Below are positions 4,966-56,990 of a DNA stretch of 57,089 bases, piece after piece. The position numbers were made by a program, and so were the translations under genes. The stretch is from an uncultured bacterium (lineage in GTDB: Bacteria > Patescibacteriota > Minisyncoccia > Phycocordibacterales > CAIRYW01): assembly GCA_903882905.1 (NCBI GenBank), contig CAIRYW010000004.1:115117-172205 (forward strand), in the 5' to 3' direction. Each line of letters opens with the position of its first letter. Position 1 is the stretch's first letter. Under the pieces are notes generated by a model. It searched no databases and was not told where the DNA came from. It saw nothing but the letters and a program-made list of their open reading frames with translations.

Positions 4966-6487
4966 ATTCAATAGTTGAAGGTGGTTTTTGGGTGATATCA
5001 AAAAGCACTCTATTTATTCCTCTAACTTTTCCAACTATGTTGGAAGAAATTTTTTCTAGCAACTCAGTTGGGATTTTGTGCCAATCAGCACTCATTCCAT
5101 CAACTGAATCAACAGCACGAAGAGAAACCATATAATCATAAGTTCGCGAATCACCCATAACTCCAACAGATCTAAGCGGAAGTAAAACTACAAAGGCTTG
5201 CCAAATTTTTTCGTATTCACCGGCTTTCTTAAGTTCTTCAATATAAATTGAATCCGCTTCTCTTAAAATATTTAATCTATCCTCTGTTATATCTCCGACA
5301 ATTCTAATCGCGAGTCCTGGACCTGGGAATGGATGCCGCCAGAGCATGTCATGAGGTAAATTTAAAACAGCTCCAATTTTTCTAACTTCATCTTTATATA
5401 GATCTCTAATTGGTTCAATAATTTTGAATCCAAATTTATCAGGAAGTGTTAAGTTGTGATGGCTTTTAATTTTTGATGCATGTTTTGTTGGTTCTGCAGA
5501 TTCAATTCGGTCTGGATAAATTGTTCCTTGCGCCAAATATTTTATATCGTATTGTTTTAATTGTTTTTTAATTGTATCTTCAAAGACCTCGATAAATGTG
5601 TGGCCAATTATTTTTCTTTTTTGTTCGGGGTCAGTTACACCAGCAAGTCGTCCTAAAAATAATTTGGAAGCATCAACTACATGCAAATCAAATTTTTGTT
5701 TTTTTAGTAACGTTGCAACGCTTGTGACTTCGTTTTTTCTAAGCAGTCCTGGGTCAACAAAAACAGCATGCAGTTGTTTACCGATTGCTTTGTGGAGCAG
5801 TGTAGCAGCCACTAGTGAATCAACACCTCCTGAAATACCCACCAAGACATGGTCTTTTCCGACTTTTTGTTTAATTTCGGTAATAATATTTTTTGAAATA
5901 TCCTCAATTTTCCAATCTTTTGAAACTTTACAAATTCCAAGGACGAAATTTGAAATAATCTTTTTACCATTTTTTGTGTGAGTAACTTCAGGATGAAATT
6001 GGATTGCAAAAAAGTTTTTTGCTTTATGTTTGTATGCTGCAACTTTACACCCAGGAGTTGTAGCAGTTACGATAAAATCTTTTGGTAACTTTTCAACCTG
6101 GTCACCGTGGGAAAACCAAACAATTTCTTCGTCCTTTAATCCTTTAAAAATATTTTCTTTCTGTAAAACACTAAGAATTTCTTTTCCGAATTCCCTGCTT
6201 TTTCCTTTTACAACTTTACCACCAAGCATTTCGGTCATTACTTGGTGTCCATAACAAATTCCTAAAATTGGAATATTCAAATTAAAAATTTCTTTTGCTG
6301 GGCGAGGGCTACCCTTGCTCAAAACTGATGAAGGACCCCCAGAAAAAATGATTCCTTCTGGATTGATTTCTTTTATTCTTTCAGCGGTTACATCGAACGG
6401 CAAAATTTCTGCCTTCACTCCAAGATCTCGCACTCTTCTTGCTATTAAGTGAGCAAATTGGCTTCCAAAATTCAAAATTATTATCAT
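4958..6487 (-). CDS. guaA: GMP synthase (glutamine-hydrolysing)
   Basis: 509 aa. GATase domain (GICYGHQ, FHPE), ATP-PPase motif SGGVDS, and a C-terminal dimerisation domain ending PPSTIEYE. Confidence 0.95.
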   Translation of the reverse strand: MIIILNFGSQFAHLIARRVRDLGVKAEILPFDVTAERIKEINPEGIIFSGGPSSVLSKGSPRPAKEIFNLNIPILGICYGHQVMTEMLGGKVVKGKSREFGKEILSVLQKENIFKGLKDEEIVWFSHGDQVEKLPKDFIVTATTPGCKVAAYKHKAKNFFAIQFHPEVTHTKNGKKIISNFVLGICKVSKDWKIEDISKNIITEIKQKVGKDHVLVGISGGVDSLVAATLLHKAIGKQLHAVFVDPGLLRKNEVTSVATLLKKQKFDLHVVDASKLFLGRLAGVTDPEQKRKIIGHTFIEVFEDTIKKQLKQYDIKYLAQGTIYPDRIESAEPTKHASKIKSHHNLTLPDKFGFKIIEPIRDLYKDEVRKIGAVLNLPHDMLWRHPFPGPGLAIRIVGDITEDRLNILREADSIYIEELKKAGEYEKIWQAFVVLLPLRSVGVMGDSRTYDYMVSLRAVDSVDGMSADWHKIPTELLEKISSNIVGKVRGINRVLFDITQKPPSTIEYE

Positions 6488-47247: not shown

Positions 47248-48126
47248 TTATTTCTCCGCTACAACTGAAAGCCCCATAACGTTAACTCCTTGTACATTTA
47301 TTTTTTTGCTGACTTGTGTGACAACTATACTAGATGTAATAGCTGCATTTGTTCGAGTGATACTGAAACTACCTCCATCAAAACCAAGTGTAGAGGTAAT
47401 AGCAAGTGGCTGGTTTGAATAATTAAGCATACTGATAGGCTGACCTCCAAGTTGCTCTATAGTTTTTTTATTACCATTCACAATTGCCCAAGAATTAATA
47501 AAGGATACTGTACCAAAATTATCTAGAGGTACAAACGCATTTGTGCTATTACTAAATGGCATTTCTTGAATCCATTCCGCTGAAGACATTGAGGATACAT
47601 AGTAGACAGAAGTCTTGTAATTCTGATTTGTCGTAACATTATTAAATGAAATAATCCACGAATTTGCTGACTGCTCTAATATTGAAACCGTAATTGAATC
47701 TCCGGGTTTAATTGCTATAGGAATAATTACTGGGACACTTGGAAGAATTTCATACCATGCTTTATATGTAAAATTTGTTTCTGTTTTATTCAAACCTGTA
47801 TTGTCTGTTAAAGCATGAGTACCTACTTGTATGAGATCGGTTTTACCCATACCACTAATCCCAACCCATGTAGCATCAGCTGAATAAACAGTACTAGTGG
47901 CTTTGGGTACTATCCAACTCGCACCAATTCCGCTATATGAACCAGCCGCAGAGCTAACATACCCAGACCAATTACGCGAAGTAATTGCATTAACGTTTGC
48001 AAACGTTATACACGGGACAGCATATAAAGTAAAAAAGATAAACATAGAACTGAGAAAAAACACAACTCCCAGTGGAGTTTTTTTTGAATTTTTTTGATTA
48101 AATTTTTGTGAGTTGGCAAACAACAT
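47248..48126 (-). CDS. Secreted glutamic peptidase, G1 (eqolisin/scytalidoglutamic)-like
   Basis: 292 aa with a signal peptide. NWSGYV...GASWIVP...ATWVGISG...IQVGT...YKAWYEILP...SAEWIQE matches the G1-family block order (catalytic Q/E context). Confidence 0.55.
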   Translation of the reverse strand: MLFANSQKFNQKNSKKTPLGVVFFLSSMFIFFTLYAVPCITFANVNAITSRNWSGYVSSAAGSYSGIGASWIVPKATSTVYSADATWVGISGMGKTDLIQVGTHALTDNTGLNKTETNFTYKAWYEILPSVPVIIPIAIKPGDSITVSILEQSANSWIISFNNVTTNQNYKTSVYYVSSMSSAEWIQEMPFSNSTNAFVPLDNFGTVSFINSWAIVNGNKKTIEQLGGQPISMLNYSNQPLAITSTLGFDGGSFSITRTNAAITSSIVVTQVSKKINVQGVNVMGLSVVAEK

Positions 48127-48224: not shown

Positions 48225-48317
48225 AGCATTAGCATACCCAACAAGTTCTGAAAACTAGCCCAACTGCCCACACATAAAAAATACTTTACAAATTTGTAAA
48301 GTATTTTTTATGTGTGG
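48225..48317 (+). repeat. Decayed tRNA-Leu-like remnant (R3) + long A/T hairpin, without downstream structured domain
   Basis: cagcattagcatacccaacaagttctgaaaactagcccaactgcccaca aligns with R1/R2. Hairpin ccacacataaaaaatactttaca/tgtaaagtattttttatgtgtgg. Confidence 0.5.
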
Positions 48318-48324
48318 ACCAAAA

Positions 48325-48370: not shown

Positions 48371-48682
48371 CTAATTTCCAATTACGGTCTGAACAGCTTG
48401 TTCGGTCTTTTGGTCTGCATTCAAACCAAATGAATTAACAATTATCTTCATGATCGTAAAAGTCGAAATCATTATCATCATTCCAACAAATCCCCAAAGC
48501 ATATGCATAGTTCCTTTTGCTCTTACCTCTTGATCATCAGCATGGACAATATAGTCTTTAACTCCCCAAAGAAAACCAACCAAAGCAAAAGCGAACATCA
48601 AAATAATCAAAGGATTAACAATCAAAGCATTCGCTTTAAGAATGATTGAATCGAAAGATACAGCCGATGCAAGTTGATCCAT
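48371..48682 (-). CDS. VirB2/TrbC-like (T4SS-pilin-like) two-TM mini-protein, paralogue 7
   Basis: 103 aa. Core FALVGFLWGVKDYIVHADDQEVRAKGTMHMLWGFVGMMIMI has the same helix / charged loop / helix pattern as the six ORFs upstream. Confidence 0.5.
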   Translation of the reverse strand: MDQLASAVSFDSIILKANALIVNPLIILMFAFALVGFLWGVKDYIVHADDQEVRAKGTMHMLWGFVGMMIMISTFTIMKIIVNSFGLNADQKTEQAVQTVIGN

Positions 48683-48700
48683 TTTTGAGTTTTCGAGAGA

Positions 48701-49045
48701 TTAAATTGTTGGTCCGTGAACCGGTGATGTAACGTCTGTTCCGTTGAAGAATGTTGTATTGAGAATTCTTACAAAACCCCAAACAGCTGTCATAACAAAG
48801 ATGATGATAATTCCGTAAATAATAATTCCTCTTGCAGCTGCTTTTTTCTCTTCATCTGCACCTGCTGTAACATACTGAACCAAACCCCAAAGAAATACCA
48901 AAACAGCAATACCGATAACAAGTGGGATTATTGAGTTGATAAGATCTCTAATTGATAGAATCGCATTCTGTGCATTGTTAAAATTTTGTGCAAATGCAAG
49001 TAATGGACCCAATACGACAACACCTGAAATTAATACTTTTTTCAT
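48701..49045 (-). CDS. VirB2/TrbC-like two-TM mini-protein, paralogue 6
   Basis: 114 aa. Signal peptide, then VLVFLWGLVQYVTAGADEEKKAAARGIIIYGIIIIFVMTAVWG. Confidence 0.55.
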   Translation of the reverse strand: MKKVLISGVVVLGPLLAFAQNFNNAQNAILSIRDLINSIIPLVIGIAVLVFLWGLVQYVTAGADEEKKAAARGIIIYGIIIIFVMTAVWGFVRILNTTFFNGTDVTSPVHGPTI

Positions 49046-49235
49046 TTTTATAATTTTGCGAAATTATGTCGCGCAATCGTCTTTATGACGCGACGCTTAT
49101 TTTAATAATTAAATTGACCTTATTAATTTGTTTGTCCCTGACAAACCCTTTAATTTACTTAAATTGTAGCACAAACCCATCTTAAAAGTGCAAGATAAAA
49201 GTGGAAAACATAACCAAACAAAATCCACACAGGTA

Positions 49236-49622
49236 TTATTGGAATACGTTTGCACAAGAACTTGTGTTAATAGGGTTTGTACCCGAGCTTTTGAATTGAG
49301 GAATACCAAAACTTACATTAAAAGTCGAAGTAAAAATTCTTAATACTCCCCAAATTCCAACAATAACGAAAAAACCGATCATTCCGTAAATCATAAATTT
49401 GGTACCCTCACTTCTTTTTTCTTCATTATCTCCAGCAGAAACATACTTTATAAGTCCTCTAAGAAATTCTACAAAAGCAATCAATATTATTATAGGGACA
49501 AGATCTAGGGCTAGACAAATAATAATATTTACTAAACCAGCAAAACTTGTTGGCGCTGTTAATGCAAAAGCAAAAACTGGTGGTGTTAGTGTTAAAACAA
49601 AAATATAAATGAATTTTTTCAT
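49236..49622 (-). CDS. VirB2/TrbC-like two-TM mini-protein, paralogue 5
   Basis: 128 aa. Signal peptide, then FVEFLRGLIKYVSAGDNEEKRSEGTKFMIYGMIGFFVIVGIWG. Confidence 0.55.
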   Translation of the reverse strand: MKKFIYIFVLTLTPPVFAFALTAPTSFAGLVNIIICLALDLVPIIILIAFVEFLRGLIKYVSAGDNEEKRSEGTKFMIYGMIGFFVIVGIWGVLRIFTSTFNVSFGIPQFKSSGTNPINTSSCANVFQ

Positions 49623-49630
49623 CGTTTTGT

Positions 49631-50014
49631 TTAATTTGGTGTAATTGTTGTTGGTAATTGAGTTGGCAAGTAAACAGCTCCATCAAAAAAAGAACTGTAC
49701 AAAAGTTTTACAATCCCCCAAACACTTATCATTACAAAAAGTACAATAATTCCAAAAATCATTACGTTCCTGCCAGATAATCTCGCTTCTTCATTGTCAC
49801 CTGCTCCAACAAATCTCACAACTCCAATTAAAAATATAACTAATGCAATAGATATAAGAAAAGGAACATATGACTGCATTTTAAATTGAATGTAGCAACT
49901 AAGTAGAGTATGCAGATCACTTGGAGTTGTACTGCAATCATTTGTTGCCGCAAAAACTGGCACAGAAACAAACCATAGACTAGTCGACAATAAAATATTT
50001 AATATTTTTTTCAT
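49631..50014 (-). CDS. VirB2/TrbC-like two-TM mini-protein, paralogue 4
   Basis: 127 aa. Signal peptide, then VIFLIGVVRFVGAGDNEEARLSGRNVMIFGIIVLFVMISVWG. Confidence 0.55.
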   Translation of the reverse strand: MKKILNILLSTSLWFVSVPVFAATNDCSTTPSDLHTLLSCYIQFKMQSYVPFLISIALVIFLIGVVRFVGAGDNEEARLSGRNVMIFGIIVLFVMISVWGIVKLLYSSFFDGAVYLPTQLPTTITPN

Positions 50015-50016
50015 TT

Positions 50017-50475
50017 TTATGGATTTGTTGTTGCAGATGGAGGTAATGATGGCATTGTGTAATCAAATCCAAAGGTCGTACTAAGTATTTTTACGATTCC
50101 CCAAACCGAAACCATCACGAAAATTGCAATTATTCCATATATCATCATATTTCTACTTGCTTCTCTTTGTTCTTCATTATCACCAGAAGAAACATATTGA
50201 ACAACTCCAATTAGAAACAATAAAACTCCAAGCCCGATAACAAACGGAATTATACTGCTGCTGATGACACATCTTGCGTAATCAAAAAGTTTAGGGATGT
50301 CTTTTGGTGCAATACAGGTTGTTGCTGCGTTTGATGATGAAGTGCCAGCATTAGCACCAACTACCGCTCCAGTTACTGCTCCGTCGGCCTTTGCCAGATT
50401 AGGGAAATAAAGGCAAACTACAAAAGACAAAACTATAAATAAAGGAATTATTTTTTTGACTTTTATTTTTGACAT
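50017..50475 (-). CDS. VirB2/TrbC-like two-TM mini-protein, paralogue 3
   Basis: 152 aa. Signal peptide, then LLFLIGVVQYVSSGDNEEQREASRNMMIYGIIAIFVMVSVWG. Confidence 0.55.
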   Translation of the reverse strand: MSKIKVKKIIPLFIVLSFVVCLYFPNLAKADGAVTGAVVGANAGTSSSNAATTCIAPKDIPKLFDYARCVISSSIIPFVIGLGVLLFLIGVVQYVSSGDNEEQREASRNMMIYGIIAIFVMVSVWGIVKILSTTFGFDYTMPSLPPSATTNP

Positions 50476-50508
50476 TTTTTTTAAAAATATTAAATTTACA
50501 AATAAATT

Positions 50509-50883
50509 TTAACTAATAACTCCCCCGACTGTATTTACAACTGCTGTAATTATAACTTGCGCACCAATGAGCACTGCTGTTCCAACCAAAGCCCAAGTAA
50601 CAGTTGTTTTAGCTTTCTTGAGCTTTTCTTCATCTCCTTGAGCGGTTGCATAAAGATATCCTCCATACATTATTGAAAGTGCTCCAACAATTGCACCAAT
50701 TTCAGTAGCGGCAGTAATTATTGATTTCAGAAATTCTGGAATACTATTTGCACTTACAGGATTTTGCAGACCATTTGTTGAACCTATTGCTTGTCCGGTA
50801 ATTCCACCAAAAACAACCACAGCAATAACGAAAAATGTTACAACAAAAAAATAATTTTTACTCTTCTTTAATATGTTTTTCAT
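50509..50883 (-). CDS. VirB2/TrbC-like two-TM mini-protein, paralogue 2 (divergent)
   Basis: 124 aa. SIMYGGYLYATAQGDEEKLKKAKTTVTWALVGTAVLIG. Overlaps the next ORF by 4 nt. Confidence 0.5.
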   Translation of the reverse strand: MKNILKKSKNYFFVVTFFVIAVVVFGGITGQAIGSTNGLQNPVSANSIPEFLKSIITAATEIGAIVGALSIMYGGYLYATAQGDEEKLKKAKTTVTWALVGTAVLIGAQVIITAVVNTVGGVIS

Positions 50884-51470
50884 TTTGTAGTTGTTGAATT
50901 AACTGGTACAACACTTGAATTGTTTACTAAACTAAATGCGTCATTTACACCTAACGTTTTCATTATAGTTGCCACAAGCAACCATCCTCCCCACAAAAAC
51001 AGTAGACCTACAGCTACTGTGGTAAAAACCTGATGAGCCTTTTCAATTTTACCACTATTTCCTGCAGAAGTTGCATACATAAAACCTGCATAAGCTACAG
51101 AAATAGCTGCTAATGTTGTTCCAATAAAAATCATATAAACCATTAATTTTTTTGCCAATATTACTAAATCACTCCAACCACATTCAGCAACACCGTTATT
51201 TTTGGTATAACAATCAGGAGTAATATGAAAACTTGCTTGAGAAGCACTCTGAACTGTTGGGTCAGACTGTGATGTACCCTGAAGGATCATCTGAGCATTG
51301 TTTGGATTCGTAAGGTCAATAGATGTCACTTTGTTGGTTGGAGATAACGGATTTGAGTTATCTACCTGACCAGGTGGTGTCAAAGTCACCGATTGAGCAA
51401 AAGAAAATACTGGTACAAACAAAACTAGAATATTTAAAACAATTATTCCAATTTTTGCCTTTATTTTCAT
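50880..51470 (-). CDS. VirB2/TrbC-like two-TM protein with extended N-terminal domain, paralogue 1
   Basis: 196 aa. Signal peptide, an about 90-aa S/T/N/Q-rich region with 2 Cys, then ISVAYAGFMYATSAGNSGKIEKAHQVFTTVAVGLLFLWG. Confidence 0.5.
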   Translation of the reverse strand: MKIKAKIGIIVLNILVLFVPVFSFAQSVTLTPPGQVDNSNPLSPTNKVTSIDLTNPNNAQMILQGTSQSDPTVQSASQASFHITPDCYTKNNGVAECGWSDLVILAKKLMVYMIFIGTTLAAISVAYAGFMYATSAGNSGKIEKAHQVFTTVAVGLLFLWGGWLLVATIMKTLGVNDAFSLVNNSSVVPVNSTTTK

Positions 51471-51512
51471 TTTTTTTATTTTGCTATCAACTGTAAACTT
51501 TTAACTATAAAA

Positions 51513-52817
51513 TTACTTGAGCAACTCTTTTATTTGTAAATCAAAAGTCTTAACAGCGTCTGGCACACTTGCGGAACCGTTATTTACAGATTCAATCATA
51601 GTCTGAAAATAATTTTCAGTTAGACTTGAATCTGGGTCAAGCCAATCACGCCCAATCAAAACAGAACGTCTAAAAACTTCTCCAGATGAACTTTGGCTTT
51701 CACTACCCAATTGATCAACTCTAACTGACGGAAGATTTGTATCTTGAGAAAAATAACTCATAAAACTATCTCCCGATAACGCTGCGGCGTTTTTAAGAGC
51801 GGATTGTTGATTTTTTGAAGCATTTACGATAGCAATTCCATAAACTTTGGCATATGTTAGAGAGGTTTTAGCATCCTGTGCTTGTGGTATTACACTTACA
51901 TCAAAATTTAGATTAGGATTTCCAGACATGAGATCAGTATATTCACTTGCAAAACCAACATAGGTTGCTGATTTTCCTCTTAGAAATTGTTCATCTGAAT
52001 TAGGTAAAGATCTGTTCCATGAATATGCAACAGAAGATGGGTTAGAAAATTGAGTATAAAAACTCAAAGCTGCTTCAACTGGATTAGCTTCGGTACTTGC
52101 GCTGTAATTATAAATAGAACTAATTAGAAAACCATTTTGATATTGAGTAATAGCATTACCAGCTTGAAAGAAAAGAGTTGAGAGTATTTCCTTGGCATTT
52201 TTAACGTTTTGATATTCACCTAAAGGTAAAGCGCTTTGAAGAATAGTTTTACTCGTAGTTATATTTGAAATTTTAGGGATCAAACTGACCAAATCCTTCC
52301 AAGAAGCAGGTGGTGTTGGAACGCCAGCTGTCAAAAAAATGTCTCTATTCCAATACATTACTAATGGGTCAATTAAAATCGGCAATGCAGTAACACCACT
52401 ACTAGATAAAAAGATATTTGCTGGAGCTGCAAAAGCATCTTGGAATGTTCTTTGTGAAATAGTTGAGTATGGAATTACAGCAAATAATTTACTATTTTTA
52501 AATAAATGACCCTCTGGCATAATTACCATATCAGGACCATTACCTTGTGCTATCGCATTTGCTAAATCGTTATCAAAAGTTTCAATAGGATGCTCAGAAT
52601 AAAGGATATTAATAGAACCAGGTGTCTTTGAATTTACTTTATCAATGGCATCATTGATTGCTGTTTTTGATAAAACTCCCCAAACTGTTACCTGAACAGA
52701 ACTACCTGTACCAGTATTATTTCCTCCAGTAAAGCCGGCAAATACTACTATTCCAATAATAATAAATACAACAAAAACTCCAATGACGATGTACTGAAAT
52801 GTTGATGTGTTTTGCAT
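51513..52817 (-). CDS. Extracellular solute-binding protein (ABC SBP family 1-like), TM-anchored, no adjacent permease/ATPase
   Basis: 434 aa. N-terminal TM. GPDMVIMPEG...LPILIDPLVMYWNRDIF..AGVPTPPASWKDL is typical of sugar-type SBPs. Confidence 0.7.
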   Translation of the reverse strand: MQNTSTFQYIVIGVFVVFIIIGIVVFAGFTGGNNTGTGSSVQVTVWGVLSKTAINDAIDKVNSKTPGSINILYSEHPIETFDNDLANAIAQGNGPDMVIMPEGHLFKNSKLFAVIPYSTISQRTFQDAFAAPANIFLSSSGVTALPILIDPLVMYWNRDIFLTAGVPTPPASWKDLVSLIPKISNITTSKTILQSALPLGEYQNVKNAKEILSTLFFQAGNAITQYQNGFLISSIYNYSASTEANPVEAALSFYTQFSNPSSVAYSWNRSLPNSDEQFLRGKSATYVGFASEYTDLMSGNPNLNFDVSVIPQAQDAKTSLTYAKVYGIAIVNASKNQQSALKNAAALSGDSFMSYFSQDTNLPSVRVDQLGSESQSSSGEVFRRSVLIGRDWLDPDSSLTENYFQTMIESVNNGSASVPDAVKTFDLQIKELLK

Positions 52818-52880
52818 AACCTTTAGTTACTAATATTTTAGAACATCTTGGAAAATATAGCCAACGGTAACTGTGGAGGA

Positions 52881-52926: not shown

Positions 52927-53454
52927 TTAAACTTTCCTCCAAATTATTCCGTAATGATGTTCTCCTGCGTCAATTTTTTGAACCATTTCAAATCCAGCTA
53001 GCAAAAAAATCTCAAGACCTTCAGATTCTTTAAAAACATGGTCTTTATGTGGACCAATTCCACCAAACGAATCACTCCATTCAATAAATAAAATTCTTCC
53101 TTTCTTTTTGACAATTCTTTTTGCTTCAAGAACTGCTTCTTTTTTATTTTCCAAGGAAAAAACAGAATTTGCCATTATTACCAAATCAACCGATTCGTCT
53201 GCAAGACTTGTACCTCCCTTTTTTTCTATATCACCATGAATTGGACGAATATTTTTTAGTCCTTCTCCTTTAGCTTCTTTTGCTATTTTGGAAATAAAAT
53301 CAGGATTAATATCAATTGCATAAACAACCCCTTCGTCGCCAACCATGTATCCCGCAAGAATTGAGTAATACCCAACTCCGCACCCAAGATCAGCAATAAC
53401 TGTACCTTTTGAGATTCCCGTTTGAAGTAAATTTTTTTGAGGATTTGAGAACAT
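52927..53454 (-). CDS. Class I SAM-dependent methyltransferase
   Basis: 175 aa. Motif I VIADLGCGVGYYS, motif II YAIDIN, post-II DLVIMANS. Confidence 0.8.
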   Translation of the reverse strand: MFSNPQKNLLQTGISKGTVIADLGCGVGYYSILAGYMVGDEGVVYAIDINPDFISKIAKEAKGEGLKNIRPIHGDIEKKGGTSLADESVDLVIMANSVFSLENKKEAVLEAKRIVKKKGRILFIEWSDSFGGIGPHKDHVFKESEGLEIFLLAGFEMVQKIDAGEHHYGIIWRKV

Positions 53455-53530: not shown

Positions 53531-56008
53531 CTAAAGACAAATAACAGAAGCTAATGAATCACCTTCGCGAAGTCGCATAATGCGAACTCCCTGAGTATCA
53601 CGTCCGAGTGTTGGGATTTCTTCAAGTGAACATCTAATCACTTGGCTCTTTTTTGAAATTGCTACCGCTTCTTCAAAATCTTCTGTAACAACTTTTGCAG
53701 AAATTAACGAGCCAGTTTTTTCTGTGACTTTGACGGTCTTCATTCCAGATCCTCCGCGTCCCTGAGTTTTGTATTCCTTAATGCTTGTCTTTTTTCCAAA
53801 ACCATTTGCAGAAACTACAAATATTTTTGCGTCTTTTGCATCTTTTTTAATGACATCACTTCCAACAACAGAAACTCCTTTGTCCAATTTCATAACGCGA
53901 ACTCCTGCAGCATTTCTTCCCATTTCTCTAACATCATTTTCTTTAAATCTTATTGATTGTCCGTCTGAAGCAACAACCAAGACGTTGTCATCTTTTTCTA
54001 CAAAAATTGCAGAAACAAGTTCGTCCCCTTTGTCCAATCTTATTGCAATAATTCCACTTCTGCGAACATCTTTGAAGCTTTCTGCTGAGACTCTCTTTCC
54101 TGTTCCTTGTTTTGTCACAAGCATAGTCGAAAGATCACTGCCTTTTTTAATTTCTTTTGGCATAGGAAGAATAGATGTAACTTTTTCATCGCCTGAAAGT
54201 GAAAGGAAGTTCATAATCGACTTACCTTTTGTAGCACGCTTTCCTTCAGGAATTTCATACATTTTTATTTGATAAACTTTTCCCATATCAGTGAAGAAAA
54301 GTAAATCGCTGTGGTTTGTTGTGGTAACAAGATGTGTTATGAAGTCTTCTTCTTTTGTATCAAGATCAACAACTCCAACACCACCTCTTTTTTGTTTTCG
54401 GTATTCATCTGGATGTGTTCTCTTGATGTATCCTCCTGCGGTGTAAACCAAAACACTTTCATCGTTAGGGACTAAATCCTCCATTGAAAGCGCCTTAGCC
54501 TCATGACTAAATACTTTTGTTCTTCTCTCATCTGCGTATTTTTCTCTTACTTCCTTTATCTCATTTTTGATGATTGCAGGAATTCTTTTTGGATTAGCCA
54601 AAATATCTTCGAGATCTTTTATAAGAAGTCTGACAGCAGCAAGTTCATCCTCAATTTTCTGTCTTTCAAGTGAAGCAAGTCTTGAAAGCTTCATTTCCAA
54701 AATTGCATTTGCTTGGCGCTCTGAAAACTTAAATGTTTTCATCAAACCCGCACGAGCTTCATCAACAGTCTTTGATTTTTTAATCAGCTTGATAATTTCA
54801 TCAATATGATCGAGTGCTTTTTTTAGTCCTGCCAAAATGTGTTCACGGTCGAGTGCTTTTGCCAAATCAAATTCTGTTCGTCTCTTTATGACATCTTTTC
54901 TATGTGCAATAAAACATTCAAGAATAGTTTTTAGTGAAAGGGTTTTTGGAATTCCATCAACAAGAGCAACTACGTTAAAGTGGAAAGGTTCTTCCAAGCG
55001 TGTGTGCTTATACAAAAAGTTCAAAACTGCTTGCGGATGACTTGCTTTTTTTAGTTCGATAACAATTCTAATATCTTTTGCGGATTCATCTCGGATATCT
55101 CTGATACCGTCAATTTTTTTATCGCGCACCATGTCAGCGATGGTGATAATAAGTTCTGCTTTGTTAACTCTGTATGGAAGTGAAGTAATGATGATTGATG
55201 AACCAGTTTTGTCTTCAATAATTTCAGCCTCACCTCTTACAACCACACCTCCTCTACCAGTTGTGTATGCTTGAACTAAATCTTTTTTACCAAAAAGCAT
55301 TCCGCCTGTTGGGAAGTCTGGACCTTTCACAAATTGCAACAAATCTTCTGATGTTGCATCTTTGTTATCTATCAAATAAGTCGTAGCATCAGAAATTTCT
55401 CCAAGATTGTGTGGAGGAATATTTGTTGCCATACCAACAGCAATACCAAGTGTTCCATTTAAAATAAGATTAGGTACAAGAGTTGGTAAAACAGCCGGTT
55501 CCTTTCTTGTGTTTTCATAGTTTGGTCTCCAGTCAACAGATTGCTTTTCGATATCACGAATCATTTCAACTGCAATTTTTGACATTTTTGCTTCGGTATA
55601 TCTATCAGCCGCTGGCGGATCTCCATCAACAGAACCAAAGTTTCCTTGGCCAATTACAAGTGGATAACGCATAGAAAAATCTTGTGCAAGTTTTACCAAA
55701 GCTTCATAGGCAGCTACAGTTCCGTGCGGATGATAGTTACCAGTTACGTCTCCAATAATTTTTGCAGACTTTCTTGTCTTGCCACCTGGATTAAGACCAA
55801 GTTCATACATTGTGTAAATTATTCTTCGGTGAACTGGTTTTAATCCGTCGCGAACATCAGGAAGAGCACGGTCAGTAATAACTGACATCGCATAGTCAAT
55901 GTAGCTTTCTCGCATTTCAGCAACCAAATTTTTTGCAACAACGTTTTTAGCAGGAATATTTTCCAAAACTTTTTCTTCTTTATTATTTTTGTCTTTTTTG
56001 TCTGGCAT
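53531..56008 (-). CDS. gyrA: DNA gyrase subunit A
   Basis: 825 aa. [15 protein letters not shown], active-site [10 protein letters not shown]-terminal beta-pinwheel repeats. Confidence 0.96.
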
Positions 56009-56012
56009 GTGA

Positions 56013-56345
56013 TTAATTATTTATTTCTGTTGTAGTACTTATCGTTGTGGTTGCTGATATATCTCCAGTCGTTGTGCTTATTTCGCTTTGAGTTGAGCTT
56101 CCAACAAATTTTTCAGGAATCGTTTTAAATTGATTAACAAAATTATCTGCGAATTTTCCAATATTGTCCTCGAATACGTTAAAAAGCGCAACTCTATTTT
56201 CTGACGTCTTATCAAGTTCCTTTTTTGCATCGCCTATAAAATAAAAAATCCAACCTATGAAAATTAAAAATGTAATCAACCCTGCAAAAATCAACGCCAA
56301 CTTTTTCTTTTCTTCGTCTGGTGTTTTTTCAGGTTTTGTTTGCAT
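56013..56345 (-). CDS. Small membrane-anchored hypothetical protein
   Basis: 110 aa. Basic N-terminus, one TM ([22 protein letters not shown]), S/T-rich tail. Confidence 0.55.
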
Positions 56346-56381
56346 TTTACTATCAACTGTAAACTGTTGCCTGTAAACTAT

Positions 56382-56990
56382 TTAAATGAACGCTACTGCA
56401 TTTGACTTTCCTTCTAAATCTTTTCTTTTCAATGTCAGTTTGTCTGTTTCTTCTGCTTTTGCTCCGACCTCTTTTGCAAATTTTTTTTGATCTTCAACAC
56501 TTCCAATTGGAATGATTAATTTTGCCTCCAGAAAAACAGCAAGTTTAGCCGCTTGAGCTGGAGTCAACATATTTTCGCCTAACTGAATCATTAAAATATC
56601 AATATCGTCAACAGCTTCAAGTGCTTCTTCAGATAATTTTTCTTCGGAAAGCGCACCGAGGTGAACTATTTTCATTCCGTCCATCGAAAGTACATATATA
56701 GTATTTATTTTTTCTTTCTTACTTTCGTAATCACTTCTCGAACCAAAGCCCTTTATGAAAACACCCTTAACTTCGTATTCACCTGGACCAGAAATAACGA
56801 ATGGCTTTTTGTCTCCAAAAGCTAACATATCAACTCCGTCATAATCCTTGTGATTCAAGGAAACAAGAGCAATATTTGCCCCGAACTTTCCTCCTTTCAA
56901 TTTTGAGTCTTTTGAGGGCGGATTAATACCTGCGATTGTGTCACCTGCCTGAAGTTTTATTTCCAAATCTCCCTGTCTTGTAATTATCAT
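56382..56990 (-). CDS. MBL-fold (Lactamase_B_3-like) protein with degenerate metal motif
   Basis: 202 aa. Layout MIITRQGD...ALVSLNHKDYDG...HLGAL...TPAQAAKLAVFLEAKLIIPIG parallels the UPF0173/MBL fold, but HxHxDH is not intact. Confidence 0.45.
   Translation of the reverse strand: MIITRQGDLEIKLQAGDTIAGINPPSKDSKLKGGKFGANIALVSLNHKDYDGVDMLAFGDKKPFVISGPGEYEVKGVFIKGFGSRSDYESKKEKINTIYVLSMDGMKIVHLGALSEEKLSEEALEAVDDIDILMIQLGENMLTPAQAAKLAVFLEAKLIIPIGSVEDQKKFAKEVGAKAEETDKLTLKRKDLEGKSNAVAFI

What the first reader, a model, noticed from the sequence alone, without database searches (positions are those of the whole stretch)
48371..52817. Seven tandem VirB2/TrbC-like mini-proteins led by an orphan solute-binding protein, with no secretion machinery in view
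Seven consecutive minus-strand ORFs (103-196 aa; gaps of 2-34 nt or overlap, except one 190-nt gap at 49046-49235) share one design. It consists of a signal peptide or N-terminal segment, a hydrophobic helix, the acidic loop (S/A)GDNEE(K/Q)R or a variant, and a second helix ending VWG.

This is the topology of conjugative/T4SS pilins. Such arrays are, to my knowledge, typical of Patescibacteria.

Unusual points:
- The high copy number, with graded divergence. Three central copies are very similar and the outer ones divergent.
- The first copy carries an about 90-aa low-complexity, Cys-containing ectodomain.
- The operon is headed by a TM-anchored ABC-type binding protein without permease or ATPase partners.
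- No VirB4/VirB6/VirD4-like gene occurs within the flanking 5-8 kb.
Basis: partly seen in the sequence, partly recalled or inferred. Interest (0 to 1): 0.6.

Follow-up and report, generated by a model that had tools for sequence, protein, structure and literature searches.

The report
Sugar-binding protein leading a pilin array
In this ultra-small (Patescibacteria) bacterium, seven small genes encode the already-described secretion-system "pilin" array. The array turns out to be an ancient, fixed-order set always led by a sugar-binding-type protein that has no transporter, which gives a testable clue to what these cells' unexplained secretion apparatus does.

Summary
Seven minus-strand ORFs (48371-51470) share a signal peptide, a two-helix hairpin and an acidic loop. 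A TM-anchored SBP_bac_1 protein (51513-52817) precedes them.

- **Identity.** Five copies pass Pfam T4SS_pilin (PF18895). A profile built only from relatives finds all seven and nothing else in the genome. Positional orthologs in relatives pass the classical TrbC/VirB2 model.
- **Already known.** Such arrays (2-11 genes) are published for Patescibacteria. Seven is the top of this order's normal range (3-7).
- **Motor.** It lies elsewhere: PrgI/VirB3, VirB4 and a VirB6-like gene on contig C10, and a VirD4-like gene on C24. In relatives VirB4 sits about 190-340 kb from the array.
- **Not in the papers I could search.**
  - The SBP is single-copy and nearly universal in the order. Only 24 of 150 good genomes have any matching ABC permease.
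  - Pilins follow it directly in every complete locus of the order and in 18 of 20 loci from other classes.
  - The array is an ordered set, A1-A2-B(n)-C, older than the order.

This scan has flagged the same SBP-led array in many other genomes. I could not confirm an SBP-pilin fusion reported in earlier notes. The biochemical function is still inferred.

The parts
51513..52817 (-). Membrane-anchored, MBP-like (CUT1-type) solute-binding protein. It is the first gene of the operon and an orphan with no cognate ABC permease.
   Evidence: Pfam SBP_bac_1 at 1.4e-13. AlphaFold2 pLDDT 90, with a TM helix at 6-30 and a disordered linker at 30-38. Foldseek matches sugar SBPs and MBP at E about 1e-21, TM 0.6-0.7. 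It is the only SBP_bac_1 in the genome. Homologs occur in 145/151 genomes of the order and 234/301 of the phylum sample.
50880..51470 (-). Pilin A1 (196 aa): signal peptide, a 74-aa S/T/N/P/Q-rich ectodomain with a Cys pair, and a C-terminal two-helix pilin module.
   Evidence: No Pfam hit. BLASTP against copy 2 gives 4e-10. A profile built from relatives only scores it at 5e-28. Its best hit in other genomes sits at position 1 in 44/51.
50509..50883 (-). Pilin A2 (124 aa). It overlaps A1 by 4 nt.
   Evidence: PF18895 at 34.4 bits against a cutoff of 26.6. NF045849 pilin-like conjugal transfer protein at 35.9 bits, below its cutoff of 40. Best hits in other genomes are only at positions 1-2.
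50017..50475 (-). Pilin B1 (152 aa)
   Evidence: PF18895 at 31.9 bits. Core identity to the other B copies is 42-60%. Best hits in other genomes are at middle positions.
49631..50014 (-). Pilin B2 (127 aa)
   Evidence: PF18895 at 19.3 bits, below cutoff. Core identity to B1 is 55%. The relatives-only profile scores it at 4e-30.
49236..49622 (-). Pilin B3 (128 aa)
   Evidence: PF18895 at 29.4 bits. It falls in the middle-position class.
49046..49235 (-). A 190-nt intergenic gap inside the array, with two short hairpins and a promoter-like site. Its function is unknown.
   Evidence: Sequence. Fold z-score is -1.5, not significant. No Rfam family matches. A -35/-10-like site lies at 49126-49099.
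48701..49045 (-). Pilin B4 (114 aa)
   Evidence: PF18895 at 35.3 bits. The AlphaFold2 model (pLDDT 80.7) shows a signal helix plus an alpha-hairpin.
48371..48682 (-). Pilin C (103 aa): the terminal copy, with no N-terminal signal peptide.
   Evidence: PF18895 at 28.9 bits. Its best hit in other genomes is the last array position in 56/58. Across all arrays, last-position pilins hit last-position pilins in 57/58.
48262..48320 (.). A roughly 25-bp perfect palindromic hairpin just after the last pilin. It is the likely operon boundary or terminator.
   Evidence: Fold energy -48.5 kcal/mol, z = -6.1, with 0 of 200 shuffles as stable. The spurious miRNA-type Rfam hits reflect the same hairpin.
52835..52864 (-). 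Promoter-like site in the 109-nt gap upstream of the SBP.
   Evidence: TTGGCT-18-TAAAAT consensus match. The count of such sites in the region is no higher than in shuffles, so this is weak evidence.
52927..53454 (-). Class I SAM-dependent methyltransferase (175 aa), the conserved upstream neighbour.
   Evidence: Methyltransf_31, _11 and _25 at 3e-18 to 5e-14. It lies directly upstream of the SBP in 20/20 wide loci and in 74 of 80 named loci.
53531..56990 (-). Conserved upstream synteny block: gyrA (53531-56008), a 110-aa membrane protein and an MBL-fold protein (56382-56990). It runs up to the contig end.
   Evidence: The order MBL > GyrA > MTase > SBP > pilins is seen in 20/20 families sampled. 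Lactamase_B_3 at 8e-18.

Best explanation
The seven genes are this organism's complete set of VirB2/TrbC-like pilins for the Gram-positive-type (MPF-FATA-like) type IV secretion system (T4SS) of Patescibacteria. The organism belongs to class Paceibacteria.

The set is not a recently amplified array. It is an ancient, ordered group: two promoter-proximal 'A' pilins, the first carrying a small ectodomain; a variable block of 'B' pilins, four here, which are the likely major subunit and its variants; and a short terminal 'C' pilin with no cleavable signal peptide.

Proposed mechanism (inferred): the pilins are inserted into the membrane and, for types A and B, processed by signal peptidase. They are then extracted and polymerised, or assembled into the translocation channel, by the T4SS motor encoded elsewhere. 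That motor comprises a PrgI/VirB3-like protein, a split VirB4 and a VirB6-like protein on contig C10, with a VirD4-like ATPase on C24.

The leading gene encodes a membrane-anchored, maltose-binding-protein-like sugar-binding protein that has lost, or never had, an ABC permease partner. I propose that it is co-expressed with the pilins and works with them on the cell surface as a receptor. It would either recognise a host-surface glycan or capture a host-derived sugar for the apparatus, rather than feed an ABC importer.

Shown here: family membership, operon structure, the fixed order of subtypes, the orphan status of the SBP, conservation across the order and phylum, and presence of the motor.

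Inferred: filament or channel assembly, a physical or functional SBP-pilin partnership, and the ligand.

The confidence given is for the whole statement. For the pilin identity alone it is about 0.9. For a functional SBP-pilin partnership it is about 0.55.
For: Pilin identity:
- PF18895 is above cutoff in 5 of 7 copies.
- A profile built only from relatives recognises all seven and nothing else in the genome.
- The classical TrbC/VirB2 model PF04956 exceeds its cutoff in 45/151 genomes of the order. Of the 42 such hits whose SBP position is known, 38 lie within 3 kb downstream of the SBP.
- The AlphaFold2 model is a signal helix plus an alpha-hairpin.

Motor in the genome:
- VirB4 passes NF045971 at 367 bits against a cutoff of 325 and P-loop_TraG at 5e-27.
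- PrgI matches at 1.5e-8, and a VirD4-like protein matches TrwB_AAD_bind and TraG-D_C.
- VirB4 is present in 144/150 good genomes of the order at 68-84% identity.

Operon linkage:
- Pilins follow the SBP on the same strand in 28/29 short loci, 20/20 wide loci and 59/59 complete named loci.
- The same holds in 18/20 loci from other orders and classes.

Ancient, ordered set:
- The nearest neighbour in another genome keeps the position class: pos1 46/58, pos2 44/58, middle 121/129, last 57/58.
- 274/303 pilins are closer to a pilin in another genome than to any paralog in their own array.

Orphan SBP:
- It is the only SBP_bac_1 in the genome.
- The genome's only BPD_transp_1 permease is in an unrelated single-permease pair on C17.
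- Only 24/150 good genomes of the order have any such permease, against 132/134 with the SBP.
- The fold is a complete MBP-like SBP.

Literature:
- Pilin arrays of 2-11 genes are reported in Patescibacteria (PMC12102498).
- The array is essential in S. epibionticum (PMC10633639).
- T4SS pilins are among the most highly expressed secreted-protein genes in cultured Paceibacteria parasites (PMC10936435).
Against: - No window copy reaches E <= 0.01 with the classical TrbC model. The link to bona fide VirB2 therefore runs through orthologs and through the Pfam family name, which is itself a prediction.
- Foldseek finds no significant match, and no solved VirB2/TraA pilin appears in the top 50. A PDB sequence profile search finds nothing relevant.
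- The array is never near virB4 in this order; the two lie about 190-340 kb apart. Gene neighbourhood therefore gives no direct pilin-motor link here.
- No filament has been seen in any Patescibacterium, and Gram-positive T4SSs normally lack pili.
- SBP-pilin coupling rests on conserved gene order alone. I found no genuine fusion protein.
- The Saccharimonadia array, the only one tested genetically, has no SBP.
- In this assembly the VirB4 N-terminal gene looks frameshifted.
Confidence: 0.6

Rival explanations
1. The SBP is only a conserved neighbour. It acts on its own, for example as a stand-alone adhesin or sensor. It sits with the pilins because both belong to a stable, highly expressed block next to gyrA, not because they work together.
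For: The whole block MBL-fold > gyrA > methyltransferase > SBP > pilins is syntenic in 20/20 families. Gene order is therefore generally frozen here, including for genes with no plausible link to pili. No SBP-pilin fusion was found. S. epibionticum has an essential array without an SBP.
Against: The SBP-pilin adjacency persists in other classes where the upstream genes differ. There the neighbours are GalU and ComM instead of the methyltransferase and gyrA. The pair therefore survives rearrangements that broke the rest of the block. Even an inserted HicAB pair left the pair adjacent and co-oriented. The gap between SBP and first pilin is 42 nt.
Confidence: 0.2
2. The SBP and the small two-helix proteins form a membrane complex that is independent of the T4SS. 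One possibility is an unconventional SBP-dependent uptake pore. On this view the 'pilin' name is misleading.
For: The array is always unlinked from virB4 in this order. There is no structural or PDB-sequence match to solved pilins. The SBP lacks any canonical permease, so something else must receive its ligand if it transports at all.
Against: Orthologs pass the classical TrbC/VirB2 model. In other Patescibacteria the same family lies beside virB4 and virB6, in 1135 of 1948 assemblies (PMC12102498) and in the S. epibionticum cluster. VirB4 is as universal in the order as the operon. A fixed set of four distinct subtypes with ectodomain-bearing members fits a major-plus-minor pilin logic better than a simple pore.
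Confidence: 0.12
3. The array is a recent tandem amplification that provides antigenic or host-range variation, as proposed for the VirB2 paralogs of Bartonella and Anaplasma.
For: Copy number varies from 3 to 7 among relatives, and sequences diverge fast, at 11-60% core identity within the array. PMC12102498 suggests this idea.
Against: 274/303 pilins are closer to a pilin in another family-level lineage than to their own paralogs, and position classes are conserved. Variation is confined to the B block. Some B-block turnover for host adaptation is not excluded.
Confidence: 0.05
4. The SBP is an ordinary ABC-importer binding protein whose permease and ATPase genes are simply missing from incomplete assemblies.
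For: The genome is 92% complete in 29 contigs. Public annotations call homologs ABC sugar or glycerol-3-phosphate binding proteins.
Against: 126 of 150 genomes at >=90% completeness, including closed single-contig ones, have no BPD_transp_1 permease at all, while 132/134 have the SBP. Where a permease exists it is single and lies elsewhere.
Confidence: 0.03

Closest known systems
VirB2-like pilin arrays of the Patescibacteria T4SS (Quinonero-Coronel et al. 2025, PMC12102498; the essential array SEML1_0014-0019 of Southlakia epibionticum ML1, Wang et al. 2023, PMC10633639)
   Same: The Pfam family is the same (PF18895). Both are tandem arrays of small, sequence-divergent, signal-peptide-bearing two-helix proteins. 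The published range is 2-11 genes with mean identity of 25%. The genomes also carry a Gram-positive-type T4SS with VirB4, PrgI/VirB3 and VirB6-like proteins, and no relaxase-centred conjugation module was noticed here.
   Different: In S. epibionticum the array sits inside the T4SS cluster, next to a VirB6-like gene, with no binding protein. Here and throughout this Paceibacteria order the array lies about 190-340 kb from virB4. It is always led by an orphan sugar-type SBP and sits next to gyrA. It has a fixed A1-A2-B(n)-C order. None of these points appears in the papers I could search.
Classical conjugative pilins TrbC/VirB2 (Pfam PF04956; the pilin families of broad-host-range conjugative plasmids, and F-type TraA)
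   Same: Both have a cleavable signal peptide and a hairpin of two hydrophobic helices joined by a short charged loop. Positional orthologs in relatives pass the PF04956 cutoff.
   Different: The window's own copies do not reach PF04956 significance. The host is a monoderm. There are seven distinct paralogs instead of one. Some members carry N-terminal ectodomains. No VirB5 tip protein or VirB7/9/10 outer-membrane core was seen.
ChvE of Agrobacterium, a periplasmic sugar-binding protein that signals plant-derived sugars to VirA and so controls the VirB T4SS (comparison from my own knowledge)
   Same: Both are sugar-type periplasmic binding proteins functionally tied to a T4SS rather than serving only as an import component.
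   Different: ChvE also serves a real ABC transporter, is not encoded with virB2, and acts through a two-component sensor. Here there is no permease, and no sensor kinase is linked to the operon. This is a functional analogy only and was not tested.
PrgZ/TraC pheromone-binding proteins of enterococcal conjugative plasmids (OppA-family SBPs encoded with conjugation genes; comparison from my own knowledge)
   Same: Both are SBP-fold surface proteins encoded with a Gram-positive conjugation or T4SS system and used for partner sensing.
   Different: PrgZ belongs to a different SBP family (family 5, peptide-binding). It hands its ligand to the chromosomal Opp permease and has no pilin partners. Not tested here.

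Membership tests
Pfam PF18895 T4SS_pilin (Patescibacteria/Gram-positive VirB2-like pilins) | Match to the family HMM above the gathering score (26.6 bits) | tested here: met
   Five of seven copies score 28.9-35.3 bits. One scores 19.3 and one has no hit. Both sub-threshold copies are recovered at 4e-30 and 5e-28 by a profile built only from relatives' arrays.
Pfam PF18895 T4SS_pilin (Patescibacteria/Gram-positive VirB2-like pilins) | Signal peptide followed by two hydrophobic helices joined by a short polar loop | tested here: met
   Shown by the hydropathy scan and the AlphaFold2 model with H3-19, H22-60 and H65-100. The terminal copy lacks the signal peptide.
Classical TrbC/VirB2 pilins (Pfam PF04956) | Match to the family HMM above the gathering score (27.9 bits) | tested here: inconclusive
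   The window's copies have no hit at E <= 0.01. Array members in 45/151 genomes of the order pass the cutoff, and 38 of 42 with a known SBP position lie in the SBP-led array. Membership is therefore supported transitively, not directly.
Classical TrbC/VirB2 pilins (Pfam PF04956) | Fold similarity to solved conjugative pilins (VirB2, TraA) | tested here: inconclusive
   The best Foldseek E-value against PDB is 0.9, and no pilin appears in the top 50. An alpha-hairpin is too generic for this test.
T4SS pilin in the functional sense | A VirB4-family ATPase and VirB3/VirB6-like partners in the same genome | tested here: met
   C10 carries PrgI (1.5e-8), VirB4 (NF045971 at 367 bits against a cutoff of 325) and an 889-aa multi-TM VirB6-like candidate. 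C24 carries a VirD4-like protein. These genes are not linked to the array.
T4SS pilin in the functional sense | Polymerises into an extracellular filament or channel in a T4SS-dependent way | not testable with these tools
   This needs cryo-ET, proteomics or genetics.
Patescibacteria 'VirB2 arrays' (PMC12102498) | Two to eleven pilin genes in tandem, or separated by one non-pilin gene, with low mutual identity | tested here: met
   There are seven genes with core identity of 11-60%.
ABC importer, CUT1-type sugar system | SBP_bac_1 domain with a two-lobed MBP-like fold | tested here: met
   PF01547 at 1.4e-13. AlphaFold2 pLDDT is 90. Foldseek gives E about 1e-21 to sugar SBPs and MBP.
ABC importer, CUT1-type sugar system | Cognate pair of BPD_transp_1 permeases and an ATPase, in the operon or at least in the genome | tested here: not met
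   None is in the operon. The genome has one unrelated single-permease pair. No such permease is found in 126/150 good genomes of the order. The protein has an SBP fold but is not part of a canonical ABC importer.
   No holin family appears in Pfam, NCBIfam or PHROGs.

The most novel reading that the evidence does not exclude
The orphan sugar-binding protein is a working part of the Patescibacteria T4SS-pilus apparatus. It would sit beside or on the pilin assembly. There it would either recognise a host-envelope glycan to trigger or aim the machine, or hand a host-derived sugar to the T4SS channel for uptake. Either way this would be an SBP-dependent, ABC-independent route. It would give the first concrete function for a T4SS that is essential but unexplained in these epibionts.
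Probability: 0.2. Interest if true: 0.85.

Novelty: new variant of a known kind. Interest (0 to 1): 0.55.

Why it matters
The T4SS of Patescibacteria is essential in the one species tested, and reviews call its role 'completely unknown' (PMC11665869). These bacteria make up a large share of bacterial diversity and live off host cells.

This analysis shows two things about the pilin genes across most of the phylum. They are an ancient, ordered set of specialised subunits, not a variable amplification. They are also wired to a transporter-less sugar-binding protein.

That turns a vague question into experiments:
- What does the binding protein bind?
- Does it touch the A-type pilins?
- Do the subtypes play major, minor or tip roles?

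It also corrects routine annotation. Thousands of database entries call this protein an ABC-transporter component, although most of these genomes have no matching transporter.

Tried and rejected
- **SBP-pilin fusion (a lead from earlier scan notes).**
  - The one candidate, a 617-aa ORF in G250:C38, spans a run of N. Residues 451-484 read as X exactly at the junction, so it is an assembly artefact.
  - Other over-long SBP ORFs are N-terminal extensions or tandem SBPs.
  - None of the top 120 of 2154 database homologs carries PF18895. The 557-aa hit P0013 is an internal SBP duplication.
  - The fusion is therefore not confirmed here.
- **Structural proof of VirB2 homology.** Foldseek on the pilin model gave nothing significant.
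- **PDB sequence profile search with the seven copies.** It returned only chance hits such as claudin and transducer helices.
- **tblastn of a pilin against 72,556 plasmids.** No match.
- **Holin or phage origin.** No PHROG function was assigned.
- **RNA element in the 190-nt gap.** No Rfam family matched, and the fold was not better than shuffles.
- **Upstream ~290-aa gene in other classes as a possible ABC permease.** By its sequence signature (not run against a family library) it is GalU-like, and the 502-aa ORF is YifB/ComM-like, so this idea was rejected.
- **One locus apparently lacking pilins (L094).** It has a HicAB-like pair inserted between the SBP and the array, so it is not an exception.
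- **Mapping conserved SBP residues onto the model.** Model coordinates are not exposed to the Python box.

Full report
**Observation**

The seven minus-strand ORFs exist exactly as described. Their sizes are 196, 124, 152, 127, 128, 114 and 103 aa. Successive genes are separated by a 4-nt overlap, then 33, 2, 8, 190 and 18 nt. A 434-aa ORF (51513-52817) ends 42 nt upstream of the first.

The alignment and hydropathy scan show the shared plan. It consists of an N-terminal signal-like helix (absent in the last, 103-aa copy), a hydrophobic helix, a short acidic loop (GDNEE(K/Q/A)R in three copies, variants elsewhere) and a second hydrophobic helix.

Core identities define three groups:
- Copies 1-2 are 30% identical to each other and 11-21% to the rest.
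- Copies 3-6 are 42-60% identical to each other.
- Copy 7 is 24-30% identical to copies 3-6.

The first copy carries a 74-aa ectodomain that is 54% S/T/N/P/Q, with Cys87 and Cys97.

**What the small proteins are**

- Pfam T4SS_pilin (PF18895) is above its gathering score for five copies (28.9-35.3 bits against 26.6). It is below for one (19.3) and absent for the 196-aa copy.
- NCBIfam gives sub-threshold hits to a 'pilin-like conjugal transfer protein' family, best 35.9 bits against a cutoff of 40.
- The 196-aa copy matches copy 2 by BLASTP at 4e-10.
- A profile built only from arrays of other genomes scores all seven at 1e-27 to 1e-35. Nothing else in the 746-kb genome scores better than 2e-3.
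- PF18895 likewise hits only this array in the genome.
- An AlphaFold2 model of copy 6 (pLDDT 80.7) is a signal helix plus a long alpha-hairpin.

Two tests gave nothing. Foldseek cannot tell this generic fold from other hairpins; its best E-value is 0.9, with no solved pilin in the top 50. A PDB sequence search is also uninformative.

The best bridge to bona fide conjugative pilins is indirect. The classical TrbC/VirB2 model PF04956 passes its cutoff in 45 of 151 genomes of the same order. I cross-checked these coordinates against the SBP positions. Of the 42 above-cutoff hits with a known SBP position, 38 lie within 3 kb downstream of the SBP, mostly at array positions 1-2.

No holin or other rival family matched.

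**The organism and the machinery**

The window is the end of a 172-kb contig of a 746-kb, 92%-complete genome. Record titles of relatives place it in class Paceibacteria (Parcubacteria). They name Candidatus Taylor-, Adler-, Kaiser-, Yonath- and Nomurabacteria.

No T4SS family hits this contig, but the genome does encode the motor:
- Contig C10 carries a PrgI/VirB3-like gene (PF12666, 1.5e-8).
- C10 also carries a VirB4 ATPase. It matches P-loop_TraG at 5e-27 and passes the NCBIfam equivalog 'VirB4-like conjugal transfer ATPase, CD1110 family' at 367 bits against a cutoff of 325.
- An 889-aa multi-TM protein on C10 aligns with the VirB6-like position of relatives.
- Contig C24 has a VirD4-like coupling ATPase.

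In four relatives the cluster order is VirB6-like > X > PrgI > VirB4-N (~212 aa) > VirB4-C (~606 aa) > membrane protein > secreted protein. In this assembly VirB4-N is split into 142 and 95 aa, an apparent frameshift.

VirB4-C is found in 144 of 150 good genomes of the order, in single copy, at 68-84% identity. In five single-contig (complete or near-complete) relatives, and in eight more where both genes share a contig, virB4 and the array lie roughly 190-340 kb apart.

Type IV pilus ATPases also lie elsewhere, on C8, C19 and C27.

**What is already known**

- Quinonero-Coronel et al. 2025 (PMC12102498) report 441 VirB2 arrays of 2-11 genes in 383 Patescibacteria assemblies. Mean identity is 25% and the maximum is 54%. 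The pilin gene lies near virB4 in only 1135 of 1948 assemblies.
- Wang et al. 2023 (PMC10633639) showed that the six-pilin array of S. epibionticum is essential and sits inside the T4SS cluster.
- Kuroda et al. 2024 (PMC10936435) found T4SS pilins among the most highly expressed secreted-protein genes in cultured Paceibacteria parasites.

The array as such is therefore a known kind. Among 59 complete loci of this order, array size is 3-7 with a mode of 5, and nine loci have seven.

**What goes beyond the papers I could search**

1. The leading protein is a complete MBP-like sugar-type SBP.
   - It matches SBP_bac_1 at 1.4e-13.
   - The AlphaFold2 model has pLDDT 90, with an N-terminal TM anchor and a flexible linker.
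   - Foldseek matches oligosaccharide-binding proteins and MBP at E about 1e-21.

2. The SBP is orphan.
   - It is the genome's only SBP_bac_1.
   - The only BPD_transp_1 permease belongs to an unrelated single-permease pair on C17.
   - Only 24 of 150 good genomes of the order have any such permease.
   - In contrast, the SBP is present, in single copy, in 132 of 134 good genomes.
   - It is also in 234 of 301 genomes sampled across the phylum.

3. Pilin genes follow the SBP directly on the same strand.
   - This holds in 28 of 29 short loci; the exception is cut by a contig end.
   - It holds in 20 of 20 wide loci.
   - It holds in all 59 complete named loci. One has a HicAB-like pair inserted in between.
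   - It holds in 18 of 20 loci from other orders and classes, where the upstream genes are different (GalU-like and ComM-like).
   - The pair therefore survives rearrangements that changed its surroundings.

4. The array is ordered and ancient.
   - Across 58 arrays, a pilin's nearest neighbour in another genome keeps its position class: pos1 46/58, pos2 44/58, middle 121/129, last 57/58.
   - 274 of 303 pilins are closer to a pilin of another genome than to any paralog of their own array (window-centred version).
   - Copy number varies only in the middle 'B' block.
   - Position-1 and position-2 pilins often carry ectodomains. The median position-1 length is 147 aa, two Cys is the modal count, and other classes reach 400-1239 aa.

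The papers read do not mention a binding protein, gyrA linkage or positional order.

**Mechanism proposed**

Shown here:
- Seven PF18895 pilins fall into four position classes.
- They form a tight operon with an orphan sugar-type SBP.
- The genome encodes a conserved Gram-positive-type T4SS motor elsewhere.

Inferred:
- B pilins are the major subunit, and A1/A2 and C are specialised minor subunits (tip, base or initiator).
- All are assembled by the VirB4/VirB3/VirB6 machine.
- The SBP, tethered to the membrane by one helix, acts with this surface structure as a glycan receptor or capture device.

Functional precedents, recalled from my own knowledge and not tested here, are ChvE-VirA in Agrobacterium and PrgZ in enterococcal conjugation.

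My confidence in the pilin identity is high. My confidence in a functional SBP-pilin partnership is moderate, because it rests on conserved gene order alone. The specific role is speculative.

**Checks that failed or weakened the case**

- Earlier notes of this scan say the SBP is fused to the first pilin in some relatives.
  - My only candidate spans a run of N and is an artefact.
  - About 380 SBP homologs screened by ORF length and the top 120 database homologs gave no true fusion.
- The window's own copies do not reach the classical TrbC model.
- The genetically tested Saccharimonadia array has no SBP.

**Relation to earlier scan findings**

The same SBP-led pilin array has been flagged and followed up on many other genomes in this scan: 528 notes in at least 510 genomes. 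Those follow-ups reached essentially the same reading. I re-derived every point above from my own calls.

**Verdict**

The array itself is a known kind. The SBP-led, fixed-order, virB4-unlinked operon is a new variant of it, widespread in the phylum. It offers a concrete handle on an open question.

Noticed in passing
G000:C10:4284-4926 (outside the window): The VirB4 N-terminal gene is a single ORF of about 212 aa in four relatives. Here it is split into overlapping ORFs of 142 and 95 aa. This is an apparent frameshift, either a sequencing error or a real lesion in the T4SS motor.
   Followed up: partly
G000:C10:2071-2349 and 5448-5834 (outside the window): Two ORFs are inserted inside the T4SS cluster, between VirB4-C and the membrane protein and upstream of PrgI. 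One looks like a GIY-YIG nuclease and the other like a four-helix-bundle (rRNA-intervening-sequence-type) protein. They were identified by sequence motifs only. Neither is present at these positions in the four relatives examined.
   Followed up: no
G140:C9:30818-34612 and G059:C28:4685-8461: In these two relatives VirB4 lies in a single 1270-1280-aa open frame, with about 1.8 kb inserted between residues ~272 and ~218/267 of the query. It looks like an intein or homing-endonuclease insertion in the ATPase.
   Followed up: no
L094:1878-2482: A HicB/HicA-like toxin-antitoxin pair (122 and 75 aa) is inserted between the SBP and the first pilin of an otherwise normal array.
   Followed up: partly
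window 48262-48320: A perfect palindromic hairpin of about 25 bp (z = -6.1) lies directly after the last pilin.
   Followed up: partly
window 47248-48126: A secreted glutamic peptidase of family G1 (eqolisin type; Pfam Peptidase_A4, 3e-27) lies just downstream of the operon. It is not part of the conserved synteny in relatives.
   Followed up: partly
L142, L141, L144, L145, L148, L150 (other classes): Outside this order, the gene directly upstream of the SBP is usually a GalU-like UTP-glucose-1-phosphate uridylyltransferase of about 290 aa, identified by sequence signature. This could hint at a link between UDP-sugar metabolism and the SBP-pilin operon, or be synteny only.
   Followed up: no
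L148 (PIL1239), L150 (PIL620), L142 (PIL459), L136 (PIL401, PIL535): In other classes, early-position pilins carry very large N-terminal ectodomains of 400-1239 aa fused to the C-terminal pilin hairpin.
   Followed up: no
L161:5844-6620 and L164:201-836: Single ORFs of 258 and 211 aa contain two pilin modules in tandem, a natural pilin-pilin fusion.
   Followed up: no
G096:C11:61933-62238 and G064:C1:32774-33058: The small membrane protein just downstream of VirB4-C gives TrbC (PF04956) hits in two relatives, at 28.3 and 22.9 bits. An extra pilin-like gene may therefore sit beside the motor. The counterpart here (C10:1399-2055) has no family hit.
   Followed up: no
G045:C24:25772-26047: A strong classical TrbC/VirB2 hit (73.6 bits) lies on a contig other than the SBP's. 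It may be a conventional conjugative element or contamination in that genome.
   Followed up: no
L157:3455-5308 (G250:C38): An apparent 617-aa SBP-pilin fusion is produced by a run of N at the junction. Automated gene calls on this record would report a false fusion protein.
   Followed up: yes
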